A DNA stretch of 64,000 bases from Trypanosoma brucei. Lineage: Eukaryota. Positions 9,632-19,102 of this stretch are shown one piece after another (position 1 is the stretch's first letter; every line of letters begins with the position of its first letter). The stretch spans positions 3,456,001 through 3,520,000 of the forward strand of contig CH464491.1 in assembly GCA_000002445.1 (NCBI GenBank). The letters are read 5' to 3'. Position numbers and translations under genes: made by a program. Under the pieces are notes generated by a model, which was not told where the DNA came from, searched no databases, and saw nothing but the letters and a program-made list of their open reading frames with translations.

Positions 9632-11145
9632 CATTAACTGATGCCTTGAAAAAAGCAGCAGCGGTGGATGTTTCGGCGAGGCTTTTGCTTGAATCAAATT
9701 CATCGCATGATCCGCTGTGGGATGCAAAAGCCCTAGCCTGTGTAGCCGTCGCCTGTGGGGTGGTTCCTTTTTCGAACCCGCCGGTGCAATGAAGGTGTTA
9801 TGTGTGTATTGGGTCTCGGACTGGGTTTCCACACAGAGGGCTCGACACAAAGACATGATGGAAGGAGTCGTTGTGTCTCTGATGATGAATTTGCCTCAAG
9901 TCTTGATTGCGTGGGAAGTTATTAAGATCTGTTGTTTACCCCTTCCGCAAACGGGCCCCTACTATCGCCCCCCAAACGCACCAATGACATTGCCCTGCCG
10001 TGAGTTCTAAAGACGCAACCCCCCTCCCCACGCACACACACACATCCCGCCAGTCTCCCACCGCTGGATCTACCTAATATTAAGAAGCCAACACCAACGC
10101 GCCAACATTGATGCTGCCGGCTGCCACAAAGGTATCAGCGGCCCGTGCACTGCCTGGACGGTGTGACCCAGACGGGAGTGGCACACCTCGTTACTTTTAG
10201 TCTGCGACGAAGTGGCCACAGGGCCAAGACATCCTGGAGCACGCGACGGAAGCATTACGGAACTTGTATCGTCCCTAGAATCCCCTCATAGGTGTATCTA
10301 GAAGCGCTTTCAGCAACCCCATCCAAACTGAAGGGCCATTCTTTGGGGGTTGTGAATTCGGTTGCCACACAGATCAGCGGTATAACCCGACACCTTTCAT
10401 ACCGTATTTTACTGAGTGCGAAACGGTTGCGATGAGGCAGGCTAACGAAAATCGTGATATCGGCACGAGAGCCTTGGACCAGCCTGTGCCGGCGAATCCT
10501 GCCATCAGCTCACGGAGAAGGGGGCGAATAATACACCCTCATGTTTTACACCGTTTGGGTTTAGGCTGTTTCCCCGGTTGCTACGGCACCCCAAATTCTC
10601 TCTGCTTTTCCGCTCTTTCCTGAGAGGGACTGTCCCTGATTACCTCCGTGCTCCAGAACGCAGCACAGTGGAGGTTGCCACCTTCAACTTCTGTATGCAT
10701 TGCCACGTGATGCCTCGCAGACTGCTTGCACACTCCCCTAAGTCAATCTTCCAGCGGCAATGCCATAAAAAGGGCTGCCCTGAGCGCCTACAGCTGCTCC
10801 CCCATTCCCGCGGCACGTTCCATATCTACCTCGGCATTTGGGTGGCCCGTCGGCGCTGCGTTGGCATACGCCCTCGCGCCACTGAACAAGAGCCACTTGG
10901 CGAGTATTGTCGTAGAAGGAAGAGTGCCCGGAGGCGTGCAACAGGGAACTGGCTTCGCACATATTAACCAAGCGGTCAACCACTTTGAAAACGCGTGGAT
11001 AGCATCTATTCCTCCAGTTTTCTTGCGCAATTTCTTTCACTGTATCCCCTCTCGCCCCGCTCTTACTCACTTATTTGAAACTACGTGGCCGCTGCCCGAA
11101 CGGATTTAACGTGCGATTTAGACTTCCACCAACCCATACATGTGA
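9632..11145 (+). repeat. Copy A of a ~1.5-kb segmental repeat, inverted relative to copies B and C
   Basis: The ORF-track peptides at 9717-10010, 10432-10623, 10578-10967 and 10726-11109 reappear almost residue-for-residue on the opposite strand at 17559-17852, 15176-15367/16432-16623, 14832-15221/16088-16477 and 14690-15073/15874-16329. Direct nucleotide comparison at both ends confirms reverse-complement identity. Homology decays at ~9632 and ~11145. Confidence 0.9.
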
Positions 11146-12815
11146 AGGGCCGGAAACCTGCGCACCATGACCCTTGAAAGGACCTTACTAAAACATGGGG
11201 CACCCTCGCAAGAAGGATTTGGAAGCTCCGCACCTTAATATGTTTTTGCTAACCTGTGGTTCTTTGCCTAATGTTCTCTGGGCGAATGTGCGGCTGCTTC
11301 TAAAGCTCCAGGCTCTTTGTGTTTGCTCATATTCTTCTTACTGAGTTAAAATCGTGGGGGCGAGTGCTCTGGGTCACAACAAGGCTTTTTTTTTGTCTTC
11401 AGGTGCAGCAGTGGGTTCTGGAACTGGCCCCTTAGGCCGCAAGAGACCTAGACGGAATAACGACACTAATGGTTTGTTGCTGGCGATCATTCATCAGGAG
11501 TCAGTGAGATGGGTGTAAGTTTTCATGGCCGCGGTTCTTTGCCCCTTGAGCAAGTCGTTTTATCAGGCTTTCATTGCCGTCAACTTCCGCTATCTGACAG
11601 TTAATTTCCGGAATAACTTGCCTGTTGAGCACTTGTTGCCATGCCACGAAATTGTCGTCGAAGCGGGAGTTTCTATTTTCTCGAAACTTTTGAGAATCGT
11701 GGTTTTACTGAAACGGGGAAAGAACTTGTTCCGCATAACGGTGGTGACCAGCTCGCGCCTTCCGCAAGGTGAGTTGGGATGAACAAGGTTCTTATTTGGT
11801 CGTTCTGTGAGGGATTGTGAAAAAATGGTGTGACTCCTTGTGTGAACCAGAAAGACTTTAGTAGCGGGTGGAGAAGTTGGTTCGTTGTCCTTCCGTCGTG
11901 TTTCCGGTCCGTGTGTTTGAACTCTTTCAACTCTGGTACTTTGGAAGGTCAGGTTTTGCGCTCGGTCACATGGTTTCCGAAGACCATCTACAAAAGGAAA
12001 ACAAGTGGACGAATTCACTGATTTTCACAAACAGTGCAGTGGAGTCAGGTTCCTTCTTTTCCAAGGGGGGGGGATGGCTGCGCCTCTTCGCCTGCGACGT
12101 TGTGCTAGGGAAAAAAAATGACGGATCGGAGCCAGGAGCTTGTTATCATTTGACTTTGCGCGTGGTGCTAGTATGGCCACGGAGAGGCTTGGAGTGGTGT
12201 TGTCGTTATGACATTAGTACAAACTCCATTCATAAAAAATGTTTTTTTTTTCATGAATCGTTTTCTAAAACTCAATCACAAATAATTGGCGACGTGGGTG
12301 AGCCTGTCAAAAATCGAAATCTAAGCCTGCGGACTTTTGAAAGAAGAATAGCAATCCAGCAGTGGTCAAATACAATGACCCCTACCACCCTCGCCTCTTG
12401 GGGACATAGAAACCCTCATGGAGTCGTCCTAAATAAATTCCACGGTCACAGAGGGGCACGGTCGAACCCTTCCTCGCACCCAGAAACCGGAGTTAATCCA
12501 GCTCTTCACCGTCACAGAAAAGGTACATTCTCGGGCGTGTGTTTTTATTCCTGTTCGCCAGTGTCTGATCCATTGGAGTGTACAGGAATTCTTTCTTTGC
12601 ACAGGGATATCCACTTTGAAGGTGATTTTCATTTCCTTCGCCCTCAGTGGTGAGGAAACCGTTTAAGTAAGGCAACTGTTAAGTCGGTGGGAAAAAAGAG
12701 TTTAAATAGAACGTGAAAAGGCACGCCTTTCTCCACACGAAAATGGGAAATATAGACTGCGGGACACCCCTCTCTGAATATCCTCTTCGAGTAAGAAGGG
12801 GGGAACATCCTAGTG

Positions 12816-17496: not shown

Positions 17497-17776
17497 TAGA
17501 TCCAGCGGTGGGAGACTGGCGGGATGTGTGTGTGTGCGTGGGGAGGGGGGTTGCGTCTTTAGAACTCACGGCAGGGCAATGTCATTGGTGCGTTTGGGGG
17601 GCGATAGTAGGGGCCCGTTTGCGGAAGGGGTAAACAACAGATCTTAATAACTTCCCACGCAATCAAGACTTGAGGCAAATTCATCATTAGAGACACAACG
17701 ACTCCTTCCATCATGTCTTTGTGTCGAGCCCTCTGTGTGGAAACGCAGTCCGAGACCCAATACACACATAACACCT

Positions 17777-19102
17777 TCATTGCACCGGCGGGTTCGAAAA
17801 AGGAACCACCCCACAGGCGACGGCTACACAGGCTAGGGCTTTTGCATCCCACAGCGGATCATGCGATGAATTTGATTCAAGCAAAAGCCTCGCCGAAACA
17901 TCCACCGCTGCTGCTTTTTTCAAGGCATCAGTTAATGGCGGTGCCTTTCTGGAGGATATGCAAAAACCTGAGGCCGCAAATAGGGGGTGGCGGGTGAGGT
18001 CGACAACTTTCGCCTCATGCGGTGATTTGAGAAGGTTACACCCAACTTCCTCTTCTTCGTTGGGGTGATAGTTGCCCTTTCCAGTCCCTTCGGGAGGTTT
18101 GGCCGCCTGGTTTGCCGTGGCGCCGCACAGTTGCAGGCTATTTTTAATGGCCTTTGCGTCCATGTTTCCATAGGTGTAGAATTTCACTCCTCCAACGTGG
18201 GCCCGTGCACTTATGAGGGCCGACCACGTACGACTCAACTCGCGCGGGAGCTCCTCCAAGCTCTTACATTCCTTGTACTGTACACCGCAGCTATCTAGGG
18301 GATGGTCGCCGGGTTTGCTGTGTGCCTTGCGCTCGCTCTGAGCTGACGAAATGCGGCGGTGTTCTTGAGCCACTCGTTGGAGTTCCGATTCAACGGTGTC
18401 TCCGCACGCGGAGAGCCATTGACACCAGGCATCGTCTGTGGTAAAGTTTTTTCGCAGAAGATCCTGCAGAACTTGTGGGTGTTGCTTCATCAGAAAGGAA
18501 ATGGCCCAACGTTGGCGTCCCCCATTTCCGTAAGTCCGTAGGTGGTCTAAATGGGCTGAAGCATCCCGGAACTCGGCTGAATTTACCGCCGCCACATGAA
18601 GTGCGCGAAGCCATGTCTTATCAAGGCGTCGAATGTTTGGGATGCTATGCGGGCAAAGAGTCTCCAAACCTGCCTCCGACCGCACTATGCGCAACATTTT
18701 CTCATAGTTCCTCGGCAACTTCTCTTTCCCGGTTGTGGACGGGTGGGGCTCGACGGCCGTAAGAGACTGTTTGCTGCCTACCGCCGTTTCTCCCTGAAGC
18801 AGTGGCATGAGACAGTGCCCGCAAGGTAGCACATCGGCATGCCGCATAACCTCCGTCGGATCCAAGCTCAAGATGGTGGAACCGCCGGACGTTATCATGC
18901 ACGGCCTCGCGGATTGTTCGGCATGAGCTTGAGCCTTGGCAACCCCCGTTCCGCTCCTTGCGTGACCTACAGAATGGGTTTGTCGCAAGGGCGCCTTGAA
19001 GGAGGCGAACGGTACAAAGGCAATAGAGCTTACTATCACACGCCCCTTCGTTTTAACAAACTCGCAGTCGAGTGCAATTGACATCGGCACTCTGCGGTTC
19101 AT
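17777..19102 (-). CDS. Hypothetical protein (441 aa); N-terminus carries a DEDD-exonuclease-like Exo I motif (ALDCEFV)
   Basis: Long ORF co-oriented with the array. The last 53 codons lie inside repeat copy C and recur as an orphan fragment in copy A. Exo II and Exo III motifs are not evident. Confidence 0.4.
   Translation of the reverse strand: MNRRVPMSIALDCEFVKTKGRVIVSSIAFVPFASFKAPLRQTHSVGHARSGTGVAKAQAHAEQSARPCMITSGGSTILSLDPTEVMRHADVLPCGHCLMPLLQGETAVGSKQSLTAVEPHPSTTGKEKLPRNYEKMLRIVRSEAGLETLCPHSIPNIRRLDKTWLRALHVAAVNSAEFRDASAHLDHLRTYGNGGRQRWAISFLMKQHPQVLQDLLRKNFTTDDAWCQWLSACGDTVESELQRVAQEHRRISSAQSERKAHSKPGDHPLDSCGVQYKECKSLEELPRELSRTWSALISARAHVGGVKFYTYGNMDAKAIKNSLQLCGATANQAAKPPEGTGKGNYHPNEEEEVGCNLLKSPHEAKVVDLTRHPLFAASGFCISSRKAPPLTDALKKAAAVDVSARLLLESNSSHDPLWDAKALACVAVACGVVPFSNPPVQ

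What the first reader, a model, noticed from the sequence alone, without database searches (positions are those of the whole stretch)
9632..17937. tRNA island bracketed by an inverted plus tandem ~1.5-kb segmental repeat inside a unidirectional gene array
Three copies of a ~1.5-kb sequence flank a 3.5-kb unique core that holds three tRNA genes and retroposon debris. Copy A lies on the left; copies B and C lie on the right, tandem and both inverted relative to A. All flanking protein genes on both sides are on the minus strand. So this is a head-to-tail junction, or an internal interruption of one polycistron, not a classical strand-switch. In trypanosomatids such pol III islands are sites of pol II termination and re-initiation, marked by base J and histone variants H3.V/H4.V. 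A perfect 1.5-kb inverted repeat around the island could form a large cruciform or stem. It could also drive inversion of the tRNA core by homologous recombination. The repeat has no convincing coding capacity: its ORFs overlap on both strands. It is not a known element I can name.
Basis: partly seen in the sequence, partly recalled or inferred. Interest (0 to 1): 0.75.

Follow-up and report, generated by a model that had tools for sequence, protein, structure and literature searches.

The report
Inverted repeat around flipped tRNA island
A real 1.5-kb inverted repeat brackets three tRNA genes in Trypanosoma brucei chromosome 11; this tRNA trio is flipped compared with other trypanosomes, the supposed third (tandem) copy is most likely an assembly artefact, and the locus fits two known kinds of site: a tRNA-linked stop for RNA polymerase II and a long inverted repeat that can make double-stranded RNA.

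Summary
The window is T. brucei TREU927 chromosome 11, 3,456,001-3,520,000.

**Confirmed**
- Arm A (9632-11157, 1,526 nt) is an inverted copy, 99.3-99.65% identical, of sequence right of a 3.5-kb core.
- The core holds tRNA-Ala, tRNA-Arg and tRNA-Phe. All large ORFs lie on the minus strand.

**Not confirmed**
- The "tandem" copies B and C abut a 100-N scaffold gap (15889-15988). They are identical over 1,156 nt.
- They differ only by a 503-nt RIME insertion in C, which has an 11-nt target-site duplication.
- T. b. gambiense and a second brucei-group assembly have one right arm and no RIME.
- B and C are most likely one arm assembled twice.

**New here**
- Each arm contains the last 160 nt of a conserved 441-aa gene plus 1.37 kb downstream, so the left arm is the copy.
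- The arms evolve in concert: 0-5 differences within a genome against about 36 between strains.
- The repeat is absent, and the tRNA trio has the opposite orientation, in six other Trypanosoma loci.

**Function**
- In Lister 427 these tRNAs lie in a published unidirectional Pol II termination region, sTTR_8.
- The arm transcripts could form a 1.5-kb duplex, as at the known siRNA-producing repeats IR1-IR7. This locus appears not to be among those seven.

It is ordinary in kind and modestly new in detail.

The parts
8651..9376 (-). UEV/RING-finger protein gene (241 aa from its ATG). It is the first gene downstream of the island, and its probable splice-acceptor tract lies in the 255-nt unique spacer 9377-9631.
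   Evidence: ORF. It is 100% identical to a named T. equiperdum/T. brucei protein carrying PF05743 and PF13920. Upstream sequence.
9632..11157 (.). Arm A, the distal (copied) arm of the inverted repeat, 1,526 nt.
   Evidence: sharp boundaries. Also present in T. b. gambiense and in GCA_003543875.1.
9632..9792 (+). Inverted pseudo-copy of the last 53 codons plus the stop codon of the 441-aa gene, lying inside arm A.
   Evidence: It is the reverse complement of 17777-17937. The parental C-terminus is conserved in 7 orthologues.
10007..10106 (-). GT-rich 100-nt element on the minus (coding) strand of arm A. It is a candidate directional Pol II start element for the downstream gene array (inference only).
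   Evidence: 99.8th percentile of minus-strand GT content in the window. GT-rich elements on the coding strand drive directional initiation (Wedel et al. 2017, PMC5579346).
11158..14641 (.). Unique 3,484-nt core between the arms.
   Evidence: No Pfam hit above cut-off for its ORFs.
12809..13008 (+). Degenerate 5' fragment of an ingi/RIME-type retroposon, 92% identical to the first 200 nt of the RIME in arm C.
   Evidence: Also present in T. b. gambiense.
13847..13918 (-). tRNA-Ala (CGC), equal to Tb11_tRNA_Ala_1.
   Evidence: Its 3' flank is identical to the published one.
13984..14057 (-). tRNA-Arg (CCG), equal to Tb11_tRNA_Arg_1.
14168..14240 (+). tRNA-Phe (GAA), equal to Tb11_tRNA_Phe_2.
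14642..15888 (.). Copy B: the proximal (right) arm, RIME-free version. It is contiguous with the core and cut off by the scaffold gap.
15889..15988 (.). Scaffold gap of exactly 100 N.
15989..16983 (.). Copy C, inner part. It is the same proximal arm starting inside the repeat just after the gap, and is 100% identical to B.
16984..17486 (+). RIME-type non-LTR retroposon insertion of 503 nt with an A12 tail. It is flanked by the 11-nt target-site duplication TAATATTAGGT (16973-16983 and 17487-17497).
   Evidence: The site is empty in B, in A, in T. b. gambiense, in GCA_003543875.1 and in four of the five Logan contigs; the fifth, L007, ends before the site.
17487..17937 (.). Copy C, outer part. 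It is the end of the proximal arm and includes the 3' end of the 441-aa coding sequence.
15693..15792 (+). Mirror copy of the GT-rich element in the right arm (repeated at 17504-17603 in C). It is GT-rich on the plus strand, so it points antisense into the 441-aa gene.
   Evidence: It is the most GT-rich plus-strand 100-nt window of the whole 64 kb.
17777..19102 (-). Conserved hypothetical 441-aa gene (XP_829374.1; by interpolation about Tb927.11.13170). It is the last gene upstream of the island, and its last 160 nt lie in the repeat.
   Evidence: Gene number inferred.

Best explanation
**Structure (shown)**
- The locus is a T. brucei-lineage inverted duplication around a tRNA island.
- A 1,526-nt segment holds the last 160 nt of the 441-aa gene plus 1.37 kb downstream of it. 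It occurs once in place (the right arm) and once inverted just upstream of the UEV/RING gene (arm A).
- The enclosed tRNA-Ala/Arg/Phe trio has the opposite orientation to that in other trypanosomes.
- Gene conversion keeps the arms nearly identical.

**The third copy (strong inference)**
- TREU927 has one right arm, not two.
- Copies B and C are that arm assembled twice across a 100-N gap, from a RIME-free and a RIME-containing version that are probably alleles.

**Function**
- From the literature: the tRNA island is a unidirectional Pol II termination region.
- Inferred: both arms lie in the minus-strand transcription path, so their transcripts are complementary over about 1.5 kb.
- Leaky read-through would give a fold-back hairpin. 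Termination followed by re-initiation would give two RNAs that pair in trans.
- Either way the product is nuclear double-stranded RNA. Dicer (DCL2) would cut it into AGO1-bound siRNAs, as at the described repeats IR1-IR7.
- Those siRNAs would match the 3' end and 3' UTR of the 441-aa gene.
For: **The repeat is real**
- Searches find it.
- T. b. gambiense DAL972 carries it with arms 0/1523 different. GCA_003543875.1 carries it with 0/1521.
- A T. equiperdum OVI short-read contig breaks 31 nt inside arm A.

**The tandem copy is an artefact**
- A 100-N gap separates B from C, and both contig ends lie inside the repeat.
- B equals C at 1,156 of 1,156 aligned positions. They share the 3 bases that distinguish them from A.
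- The only difference is a RIME with a target-site duplication.
- The related assemblies have a single, RIME-free arm.

**Direction of copying**
- The coding-sequence end inside the right arm encodes a C-terminus with many invariant residues across 8 orthologues.

**Concerted evolution**
- About 30 fixed differences between TREU927 and gambiense are shared by both arms of each genome.
- Arm divergence between strains is 2.3-2.4%, similar to other non-coding DNA there.

**Inversion**
- With the gene on +, the brucei group reads Phe(-) Arg(+) Ala(+).
- T. cruzi, T. theileri, T. grayi and T. melophagium read Ala(-) Arg(-) Phe(+). T. vivax and one unidentified species show Ala(-) Arg(-) only, with no Phe found.
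- None of these six has the repeat.
- In T. grayi and T. theileri both flanking genes keep the brucei orientation.

**Termination region**
- Lister 427 tRNAs with the same anticodons and the same spacing (137 and 320 nt) overlap sTTR_8 and all eight TTR factors.

**Double-stranded RNA potential**
- The predicted duplex is 1,513 bp at -3,321 kcal/mol, against about -780 for shuffled controls.

**Class precedent**
- Seven T. brucei repeats of 0.4-10 kb, at least 99% identical, all give AGO1-bound small RNAs.
- These repeats are H3.V-enriched, and their siRNAs rise when H3.V is lost.
Against: - No small-RNA, nascent-RNA or chromatin data for this locus could be examined here. The siRNA step therefore rests on analogy.
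- The locus is not at the coordinates of any listed repeat. IR7 lies at 4.219-4.231 Mb with 1,814-nt arms; this locus lies at 3.466-3.474 Mb with 1,526-nt arms. The survey may have missed it, or it may give few small RNAs.
- Efficient termination before arm A, or a start site downstream of arm A, would leave one arm untranscribed.
- A true tandem duplication hidden in the gap cannot be excluded from sequence alone.
- GCA_003543875.1 may have been built with a reference guide, so it is not fully independent evidence.
- T. congolense, the closest outgroup, could not be retrieved, so the age of the repeat is bounded only loosely.
Confidence: 0.7

Rival explanations
1. The three-copy structure is real. 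TREU927 carries a true tandem duplication of the right arm (B then C), and the junction is hidden in the unsequenced gap.
For: - The assembly as deposited places B and C in tandem.
- B has an empty RIME site and C a filled one. So two physically different copies, or two alleles, must exist in the sequenced DNA.
Against: - No B/C junction is sequenced. Both contig ends lie inside the same repeat and overlap perfectly over 1,156 nt.
- T. b. gambiense and GCA_003543875.1 have one right arm.
- Heterozygosity for the RIME insertion explains the same data without an extra copy.
Confidence: 0.12
2. The repeat is an active recombinational switch. Crossing-over between the arms keeps flipping the tRNA core, so both orientations coexist in populations or in cells.
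For: - The arms are homogenised by gene conversion, so they do interact.
- The core is inverted relative to other trypanosomes.
Against: - TREU927, DAL972 and GCA_003543875.1 all show one orientation.
- Lister 427 does too, judged from tRNA order relative to the His/Glu/Phe cluster.
- One historical inversion is enough to explain the data.
Confidence: 0.1
3. This locus is one of the seven repeats already catalogued by Tschudi et al. 2012 (IR7 on chromosome 11), listed under different coordinates. If so, its siRNA output is already measured: 9,296 reads, falling to 2% of wild type in dcl2-/- cells.
For: - IR7 is the only chromosome 11 repeat in a survey described as genome-wide. It has kb-scale arms at 99% identity with 3 mismatches.
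- The alignment of A against the inner part of C here also has 3 mismatches.
Against: - The published tRNA coordinates place this window at 3,456,001-3,520,000. The offset is an exact multiple of 64,000. IR7 lies at 4,219,000-4,231,000.
- Arm lengths differ, 1,814 against 1,526 nt, and there is no degenerate extension here.
- A rough calibration suggests both papers use one coordinate system. Lister 427 cTTR_7 minus the local 128-kb offset falls in Tschudi's CTU47.
Confidence: 0.15
4. The repeat matters mainly because it duplicated a Pol II start element. The GT-rich element in arm A restarts transcription of the downstream array. Its mirror copy in the right arm fires antisense into the 441-aa gene, giving convergent transcription and double-stranded RNA without any hairpin.
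For: - The right-arm element is the most GT-rich plus-strand 100-nt window in the 64 kb. Its mirror in arm A is at the 99.8th percentile on the coding strand, about 630-730 nt upstream of the UEV gene's ATG.
- GT-rich elements drive directional initiation and H2A.Z deposition.
Against: - GT content was the only measure used. It peaks at 0.76, which is not extreme.
- No start-site or H2A.Z data were examined.
- The published synthetic elements were 210-416 nt long.
Confidence: 0.15
5. The inverted repeat itself is an assembly error.
For: The locus contains a gap and a retroposon, both of which often accompany misassembly.
Against: - The repeat is present without gaps in the independently sequenced T. 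b. gambiense. There it carries about 2.5% strain-specific differences shared by both arms.
- Each arm is contiguous with different unique flanks.
- Short-read contigs break at the arm boundary.
Confidence: 0.02

Closest known systems
Long inverted repeats IR1-IR7 of T. brucei, sources of AGO1-bound siRNAs (Tschudi et al. 2012, PMC3447711). They are H3.V-enriched, and their siRNA output rises in H3.V knock-outs (Reynolds et al. 2016, PMC4721609).
   Same: - Same organism.
- Arms of kb scale and at least 99% identical, with a spacer of a few kb.
- Located within Pol II-transcribed chromosome cores.
- The near-identity that those authors found puzzling is explained here by concerted evolution.
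   Different: - Coordinates and arm length match none of the seven.
- No small-RNA data were seen for this locus.
- Here the spacer is a tRNA island annotated as a termination region, and one arm carries the 3' end of a conserved gene.
tRNA-associated single (unidirectional) Pol II termination regions of T. brucei. They carry H3.V and H4.V (Siegel et al. 2009, as cited in PMC8559703). The annotation here is sTTR_8 of Lister 427 (Staneva et al. 2021, Suppl. Table S8).
   Same: The same three tRNAs with the same spacing sit between same-strand gene arrays. They are bound by the eight RNAPIII/TTR-associated factors.
   Different: The papers read here that list these regions do not mention a kb-scale inverted repeat around the tRNAs. 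Only the tables and passages retrieved were checked.
Inversions flanked by inverted duplications of breakpoint sequence. Two routes are known: the staggered-break model described for Drosophila inversions (Ranz et al. 2007), and fold-back inverted duplication followed by loss of the inner copy. Both are cited from my own knowledge and were not checked here.
   Same: - The enclosed markers are flipped while both flanking genes keep their orientation.
- The duplicated segment comes from one side only (the 441-aa gene's 3' end) and reappears inverted at the other breakpoint.
   Different: - The mechanism cannot be told from the end product.
- Non-coding sequence is too diverged from the outgroups to map the breakpoints to the base.
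Hairpin-RNA (hpRNA) endo-siRNA genes of Drosophila. These are inverted duplications of part of a protein-coding gene whose siRNAs target the parent gene (Okamura et al. 2008 is cited in PMC3683921; the evolutionary origin is from my own knowledge).
   Same: An inverted partial copy of a gene's 3' end lies close to the parent and is able to give a long perfect hairpin.
   Different: - Only 160 nt of the 1,526 nt are coding.
- No evidence that the parent mRNA is regulated.
- The loop contains pol III genes and a Pol II terminator.
RIME, the roughly 500-bp non-autonomous partner of the ingi retroposon in T. brucei (my own knowledge for the family definition).
   Same: 503 nt, a poly(A) tail, an 11-nt target-site duplication, empty sites in the paralogous and orthologous copies, and a 5' end shared with another ingi-type fragment in the core.
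   Different: It was not compared with a reference RIME sequence, because none was available in the tools.

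Membership tests
T. brucei siRNA-producing long inverted repeats (IR1-IR7 class, Tschudi 2012) | Two arms of at least about 0.4 kb in inverted orientation, at least 99% identical, separated by a spacer of a few kb. 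| tested here: met
   Arms of 1,526 nt at 99.3-99.65% identity with a 3,484-nt spacer.
T. brucei siRNA-producing long inverted repeats (IR1-IR7 class, Tschudi 2012) | A real genomic feature, not an assembly artefact. | tested here: met
   Present in T. b. gambiense DAL972 and in GCA_003543875.1 with strain-specific substitutions in both arms. A short-read contig breaks at the arm edge.
T. brucei siRNA-producing long inverted repeats (IR1-IR7 class, Tschudi 2012) | AGO1-bound 22-25-nt small RNAs of both polarities, dependent on Dicer. | not testable with these tools
   No read-level small-RNA data were available. Three 'miscellaneous' chromosome 11 loci in the paper's supplement carry no coordinates.
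T. brucei siRNA-producing long inverted repeats (IR1-IR7 class, Tschudi 2012) | Being one of the seven listed loci. | tested here: not met
   This locus is at chr11 3,465,632-3,473,937 with 1,526-nt arms. IR7 is at 4,219,000-4,231,000 with 1,814-nt arms.
tRNA-associated unidirectional Pol II termination region (sTTR) | Pol III genes lying between protein-coding arrays on the same strand. | tested here: met
   Three tRNAs. All credible ORFs of at least 220 aa are on the minus strand on both sides.
tRNA-associated unidirectional Pol II termination region (sTTR) | Annotated termination region and occupancy by termination-region factors at these tRNAs. | tested here: met
   A literature look-up, not my own mapping. 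Lister 427 Chr11_core Ala-cgc at 3603481, Arg-ccg at 3603618 and Phe-gaa at 3603801 are marked sTTR_8 with 'yes' for all factors. The spacing equals that in the window.
tRNA-associated unidirectional Pol II termination region (sTTR) | H3.V, H4.V or base J peak and a drop in nascent RNA at this locus. | not testable with these tools
   No ChIP or nascent-RNA tracks were available.
Tandem segmental duplication (the three-copy reading) | A sequenced junction between the two tandem copies. | tested here: not met
   B ends and C starts inside the repeat, on either side of 100 N.
Tandem segmental duplication (the three-copy reading) | Sequence divergence, or independent flanks, that distinguish the two copies. 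| tested here: not met
   0 mismatches in 1,156 nt. The only difference is presence or absence of the RIME. Related assemblies have a single copy.
Inversion flanked by an inverted duplication | Enclosed markers reversed relative to outgroups while the flanking genes keep their orientation. | tested here: met
   The brucei group reads Phe(-) Arg(+) Ala(+). T. grayi and T. theileri read Ala(-) Arg(-) Phe(+), with the 441-aa orthologue and the UEV gene both on +. T. cruzi, T. vivax, T. melophagium and an unidentified species show the same tRNA orientation; Phe was not found in T. vivax or the unidentified species.
Inversion flanked by an inverted duplication | The duplication is absent from outgroups and is derived from one breakpoint. 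| tested here: met
   No inverted repeat of at least 60 nt spans the tRNAs in six outgroup loci. The arm contains the conserved 3' end of the 441-aa gene.
Invertible (flip-flop) segment | Both orientations observed. | tested here: not met
   One orientation in TREU927, DAL972, GCA_003543875.1 and Lister 427. Mixtures within a population were not testable.
RIME retroposon | About 500 nt, a 3' poly(A) tail, a target-site duplication and a demonstrable empty site. | tested here: met
   503 nt, A12 tail, 11-nt duplication, and empty sites in A, B, gambiense, GCA_003543875.1 and four of the five Logan contigs.
RIME retroposon | Sequence identity to reference RIME/ingi ends. | tested here: inconclusive
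   The only comparison was with the ingi-type fragment in the core (92% over 200 nt) and with the 5' motif as I remember it. No reference sequence was available.

The most novel reading that the evidence does not exclude
The inverted duplication created a lineage-specific natural hairpin gene whose output is gated by Pol II termination at the tRNA island. When termination there is leaky (for example with low H3.V or base J), read-through joins both arms in one transcript. The resulting siRNAs then silence the conserved 441-aa gene, whose 3' end and 3' UTR form the arm. That would couple termination efficiency to RNAi control of a specific housekeeping-type gene. It would also explain why gene conversion keeps the arms identical.
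Probability: 0.1. Interest if true: 0.65.

Novelty: new member of a known kind. Interest (0 to 1): 0.35.

Why it matters
- **Annotation:** it removes a spurious third repeat copy from the TREU927 reference. It also flags a probably heterozygous RIME insertion.
[quoted passage not shown] Those repeats are known to feed the RNAi pathway.
- **Origin:** for this one the origin can be read. It is an inverted duplication tied to an inversion at a tRNA island that is a recurrent rearrangement breakpoint in the genus.
- **Maintenance:** gene conversion keeps the arms nearly identical, which answers a puzzle raised in the 2012 survey.
- **A test bed:** a perfect repeat sitting on an annotated Pol II termination region is a natural place to ask whether termination efficiency controls endogenous double-stranded RNA production.
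- **Scope:** none of this changes current models. It is a well-defined example, not a new principle.

Tried and rejected
1. **Equating the locus with Tschudi's IR7.**
   - I first estimated the TREU927 position by aligning the right chromosome ends of gambiense and TREU927. That gave about 4.22 Mb.
   - Published tRNA coordinates then placed the window at 3.456-3.520 Mb, so I withdrew the estimate. The left ends are the colinear ones.
2. **Exact look-up of the TREU927 441-aa protein.** Its contig was not on record. The UEV protein returned only a T. equiperdum OVI contig.
3. **Coding or RNA content of the arms and core.** Pfam gave no hit above cut-off for 8 ORFs; one NDNF_C match fell below cut-off and is taken as chance. 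Rfam at E up to 0.1 found only the three tRNAs.
4. **Degenerate extension of the arms beyond their boundaries.** None found.
5. **T. congolense orthologue.** Neither protein search found one. The Logan contig L013 (46% identity) is of unknown species.
6. **Function of the 441-aa protein.**
   - No Pfam or PDB sequence match.
   - The AlphaFold model has mean pLDDT 43.7, too poor for fold search.
   - The exonuclease idea therefore stays a hunch.
7. **Literature search for Tb927.11.13150 to 13180.** No paper found.
8. **Supplements of Reynolds 2016 and Tschudi 2012.** They give no coordinates that would place small RNAs on this locus.

Full report
**1. Where the window comes from**

The 441-aa ORF at 17777-19102 (-) is 100% identical to XP_829374.1 of T. 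brucei brucei TREU927, which lies on a 5,261,801-bp record. ARAGORN and Rfam find three tRNAs: Ala-CGC at 13847-13918 (-), Arg-CCG at 13984-14057 (-) and Phe-GAA at 14168-14240 (+). Padilla-Mejia et al. 2009 (PMC2695483, supplement) list Tb11_tRNA_Ala_1 at 3469847..3469918 (complement), Arg_1 at 3469985..3470056 (complement) and Phe_2 at 3470168..3470240. Their 3' flanks are identical to those in the window. The window is therefore chromosome 11, 3,456,001-3,520,000, and the finding spans 3,465,632-3,473,937. Interpolating UniProt accessions (Q382M8 = Tb927.11.13080, Q382K0 = .13360, Q382J7 = .13400) puts the 441-aa gene (Q382L9) at about Tb927.11.13170. That number is an inference.

**2. Check of the observation**

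The self-comparison gives these matches:
- Arm A, 9632-11157.
- Its reverse complement at 14649-15888 (copy B: 1,241 nt aligned, 6 mismatches and 1 gap).
- Its reverse complement at 15989-16983 (copy C inner part: 995 nt, 3 mismatches).
- Its reverse complement at 17487-17937 (copy C outer part: 451 nt, 2 mismatches).

The boundaries are sharp, with no degenerate extension. Every credible ORF of at least 220 aa in the 64 kb is on the minus strand. So the repeat, the tRNA core and the one-directional gene context are real.

**3. The tandem copy**

- Positions 15889-15988 are exactly 100 N.
- B runs up to the gap while still inside the repeat (A-coordinate 9910). C begins just after the gap, also inside the repeat (A-coordinate 11066). 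No B/C junction exists in the sequence.
- In a common alignment B and C are identical at all 1,156 shared positions, apart from one 1-nt gap. They also share the three bases that set them apart from A.
- Their only difference is a 503-nt insert in C (16984-17486).
  - It starts CCCTGGCGATGCCGGCCACCTCAACGTGG and ends in A12.
  - The 11-nt duplication TAATATTAGGT flanks it.
  - B and A show the empty site.
  - By my knowledge of the family, this is a canonical RIME-type retroposon insertion.
- T. b. gambiense DAL972 (L001) and GCA_003543875.1 (L002) have a single RIME-free right arm. The interval between the two genes is about 1.6 kb shorter there. Neither locus contains any N. I believe L002 is T. 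equiperdum IVM-t1, but I did not verify that.
- Of the five Logan short-read contigs from other isolates, four read through the empty RIME site; the fifth, L007, ends before it.

The simplest reading is one right arm assembled twice, from a RIME-free and a RIME-bearing version that are probably two alleles. I put a true tandem duplication at about 0.12.

**4. The inverted repeat is real and evolves in concert**

- Both arms are present in L001 and L002. Within a genome the arms differ at 0 of 1,523 and 0 of 1,521 positions.
- A T. equiperdum OVI contig starts 287 nt upstream of the UEV gene's ATG. That is 31 nt inside arm A, the kind of break a repeat boundary causes.
- Between TREU927 and gambiense, orthologous arms differ at 36-39 positions (97.4-97.6% identity). 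At about 30 of these positions both arms of a genome carry the same base.
- Divergence between the strains is 2.3-2.4% in the arms. That resembles the neighbouring non-coding DNA (1.1-3.9%) and exceeds the coding sequences (0.4-0.9%).
- The arms therefore mutate at the normal rate and are repeatedly homogenised by gene conversion. Tschudi et al. found the near-identity of such repeats puzzling, and conversion explains it without any special selection.

**5. What the arm is**

The outer 160 nt of the right arm are codons 389-441 plus the stop of the 441-aa gene. This C-terminus carries many invariant residues across eight Trypanosoma orthologues: L390, A393, K396, D401, H414, P416, W418, D419 and others. 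The right arm is therefore the original. Arm A is an inverted copy carrying a pseudo-fragment of the gene at 9632-9792 (+). The remaining 1.37 kb has no Pfam or Rfam match.

**6. Comparative anatomy**

All loci below are oriented with the 441-aa orthologue on the + strand.

| Species or assembly | tRNA order after the gene | Inverted repeat |
|---|---|---|
| T. brucei group (3 assemblies) | Phe(-) Arg(+) Ala(+) | present |
| T. cruzi, T. theileri, T. grayi, T. melophagium | Ala(-) Arg(-) Phe(+) | absent |
| T. vivax | Ala(-) Arg(-), Phe not found | absent |
| Unidentified species (SRR16767846) | Ala(-) Arg(-), then the contig ends | absent |

- In T. grayi the whole interval between the two genes is about 950 nt, and the UEV gene is on +. 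T. theileri has the same layout.
- The ancestral state is therefore gene, then Ala(-) Arg(-) Phe(+), then UEV. The brucei lineage flipped the trio and gained the repeat.
- Lister 427 has the TREU927 order relative to the neighbouring His/Glu/Phe cluster. Four brucei-group assemblies thus agree, and nothing suggests ongoing flipping.
- An inversion flanked by an inverted duplication of one breakpoint is the expected product of two routes. One is staggered-break inversion. The other is fold-back duplication followed by loss of the inner copy. This is my own knowledge, and the end product cannot tell the two apart.
- In T. vivax and T. melophagium the block downstream of the trio, including UEV, is itself inverted. 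This tRNA island is a recurrent breakpoint in the genus.

**7. How it most likely works**

- *From the literature:* in Lister 427 the same three tRNAs, with spacing of 137 and 320 nt against 137 and 321 nt here, overlap the annotated single Pol II termination region sTTR_8. All eight RNAPIII/TTR-associated factors are found there (Staneva et al. 2021, Suppl. Table S8).
- *Shown by computation:* the minus-strand transcripts of the two arms can pair over 1,513 bp at -3,321 kcal/mol, against about -780 for shuffled controls.
- *Inferred:* read-through past the island would give a hairpin. Termination followed by restart upstream of arm A would give two RNAs that are complementary in trans.
  - Either product would be a substrate for the nuclear Dicer DCL2 and then for AGO1.
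  - That is what happens at the seven long inverted repeats of Tschudi et al. 2012 (0.4-10 kb, at least 99% identical, all yielding small RNAs).
  - Those repeats are H3.V-enriched, and their siRNAs rise without H3.V (Reynolds et al. 2016).
  - siRNAs from this locus would match the 3' end and 3' UTR of the 441-aa gene.
- *Speculative:* the most GT-rich plus-strand 100-nt window of the whole 64 kb lies in the right arm (15693-15792). Its mirror in arm A is GT-rich on the coding strand, about 630-730 nt upstream of the UEV gene's ATG. GT-rich elements on the coding strand drive directional Pol II initiation (Wedel et al. 2017). The duplication may therefore also have copied a start element that now points antisense into the 441-aa gene.

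**8. Comparison with what is known**

- The class, long inverted repeats that yield siRNAs, is known. So is the tRNA-associated termination region.
- This particular repeat does not match any listed one. The only chromosome 11 entry, IR7, lies at 4,219,000-4,231,000 with 1,814-nt arms. This locus lies at 3.466-3.474 Mb with 1,526-nt arms.
- A rough calibration supports a shared coordinate system. Lister 427 cTTR_7 at 2,213,880, minus the 128-kb local offset, falls inside Tschudi's CTU47 at 2,082,000-2,092,000. The support is modest, because I chose the offset from a range.
- I leave 0.15 for the possibility that the two loci are the same.
- Three 'miscellaneous' DCL2-dependent small-RNA loci on chromosome 11 are listed without coordinates. 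This locus could be one of them.

**9. Verdict**

The repeat, the tRNAs and the gene context stand. The tandem copy is most probably an artefact of a gap plus an allelic RIME. The locus is a new member of a known kind. Its documented origin, its maintenance by gene conversion and the lineage-specific inversion are modest new points. Interest is 0.35.

Noticed in passing
window 15889-15988: A run of exactly 100 N (a scaffold gap of unknown size) sits between copies B and C. It is the only gap in the 64 kb.
   Followed up: yes
L008 (T. vivax) 11692-16626; L015 (T. melophagium) 11522-18345: In T. vivax and T. melophagium the gene block downstream of the Ala/Arg(/Phe) trio, including the UEV gene, lies on the opposite strand to the 441-aa orthologue. 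In T. grayi, T. theileri and T. brucei it lies on the same strand. The tRNA island looks like a recurrent inversion breakpoint. In T. melophagium the inverted block ends at a second tRNA cluster (Val/His/Glu/Phe).
   Followed up: partly
L014 (T. grayi) 4961-5098: A perfect 138-nt palindrome (69-nt arms, no spacer) lies between the stop codon of the 441-aa orthologue and tRNA-Ala. It could be real or an assembly artefact.
   Followed up: no
window 17777-19102 (-), the 441-aa protein: The conserved hypothetical protein has invariant D12-x-E14, D315 and H414-x4-D419-A420. These resemble the ExoI, ExoII and ExoIII motifs of DEDDh 3'-5' exonucleases. The H-x4-D motif is encoded inside the repeat arm. 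There is no Pfam or PDB sequence hit, the AlphaFold model is unusable (pLDDT 43.7), and hhalign against DnaQ is not significant (E = 0.54).
   Followed up: partly
L001 13090-13226, against window about 14245-14259: T. b. gambiense has 137 nt next to tRNA-Phe that TREU927 lacks. The segment is bounded by a 15-nt near-direct repeat (GGAGGAGGTGCAAAA / GGAGGATGTGCAAAA), which suggests a slippage or microhomology deletion.
   Followed up: partly
about 3.9 kb left of the window start (chr11 3,452,094-3,452,429, from published coordinates): A second tRNA cluster (His/Glu/Phe; sTTR_7 in Lister 427) lies 17.8 kb from the Ala/Arg/Phe trio in TREU927 but 23.2 kb from it in Lister 427. The extra 5.5 kb in Lister 427 is about the size of an ingi element. 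The cause was not determined.
   Followed up: no
window 41668-44000: An AT-rich stretch (GC 0.36, GC skew -0.29 at 42001-44000) contains a 24-nt tandem repeat at 41965-42018. A minus-strand GT-rich peak lies at 41668-41858, and another at 32141-32254.
   Followed up: no
Tschudi et al. 2012, Additional file 5 (no window coordinates): Three chromosome 11 small-RNA loci labelled TUD5, DNK13TUD and DNK14TUD have reads on both strands and fall to 5-16% of wild type in dcl2-/- cells. They are listed without coordinates. One of them could be this locus.
   Followed up: partly
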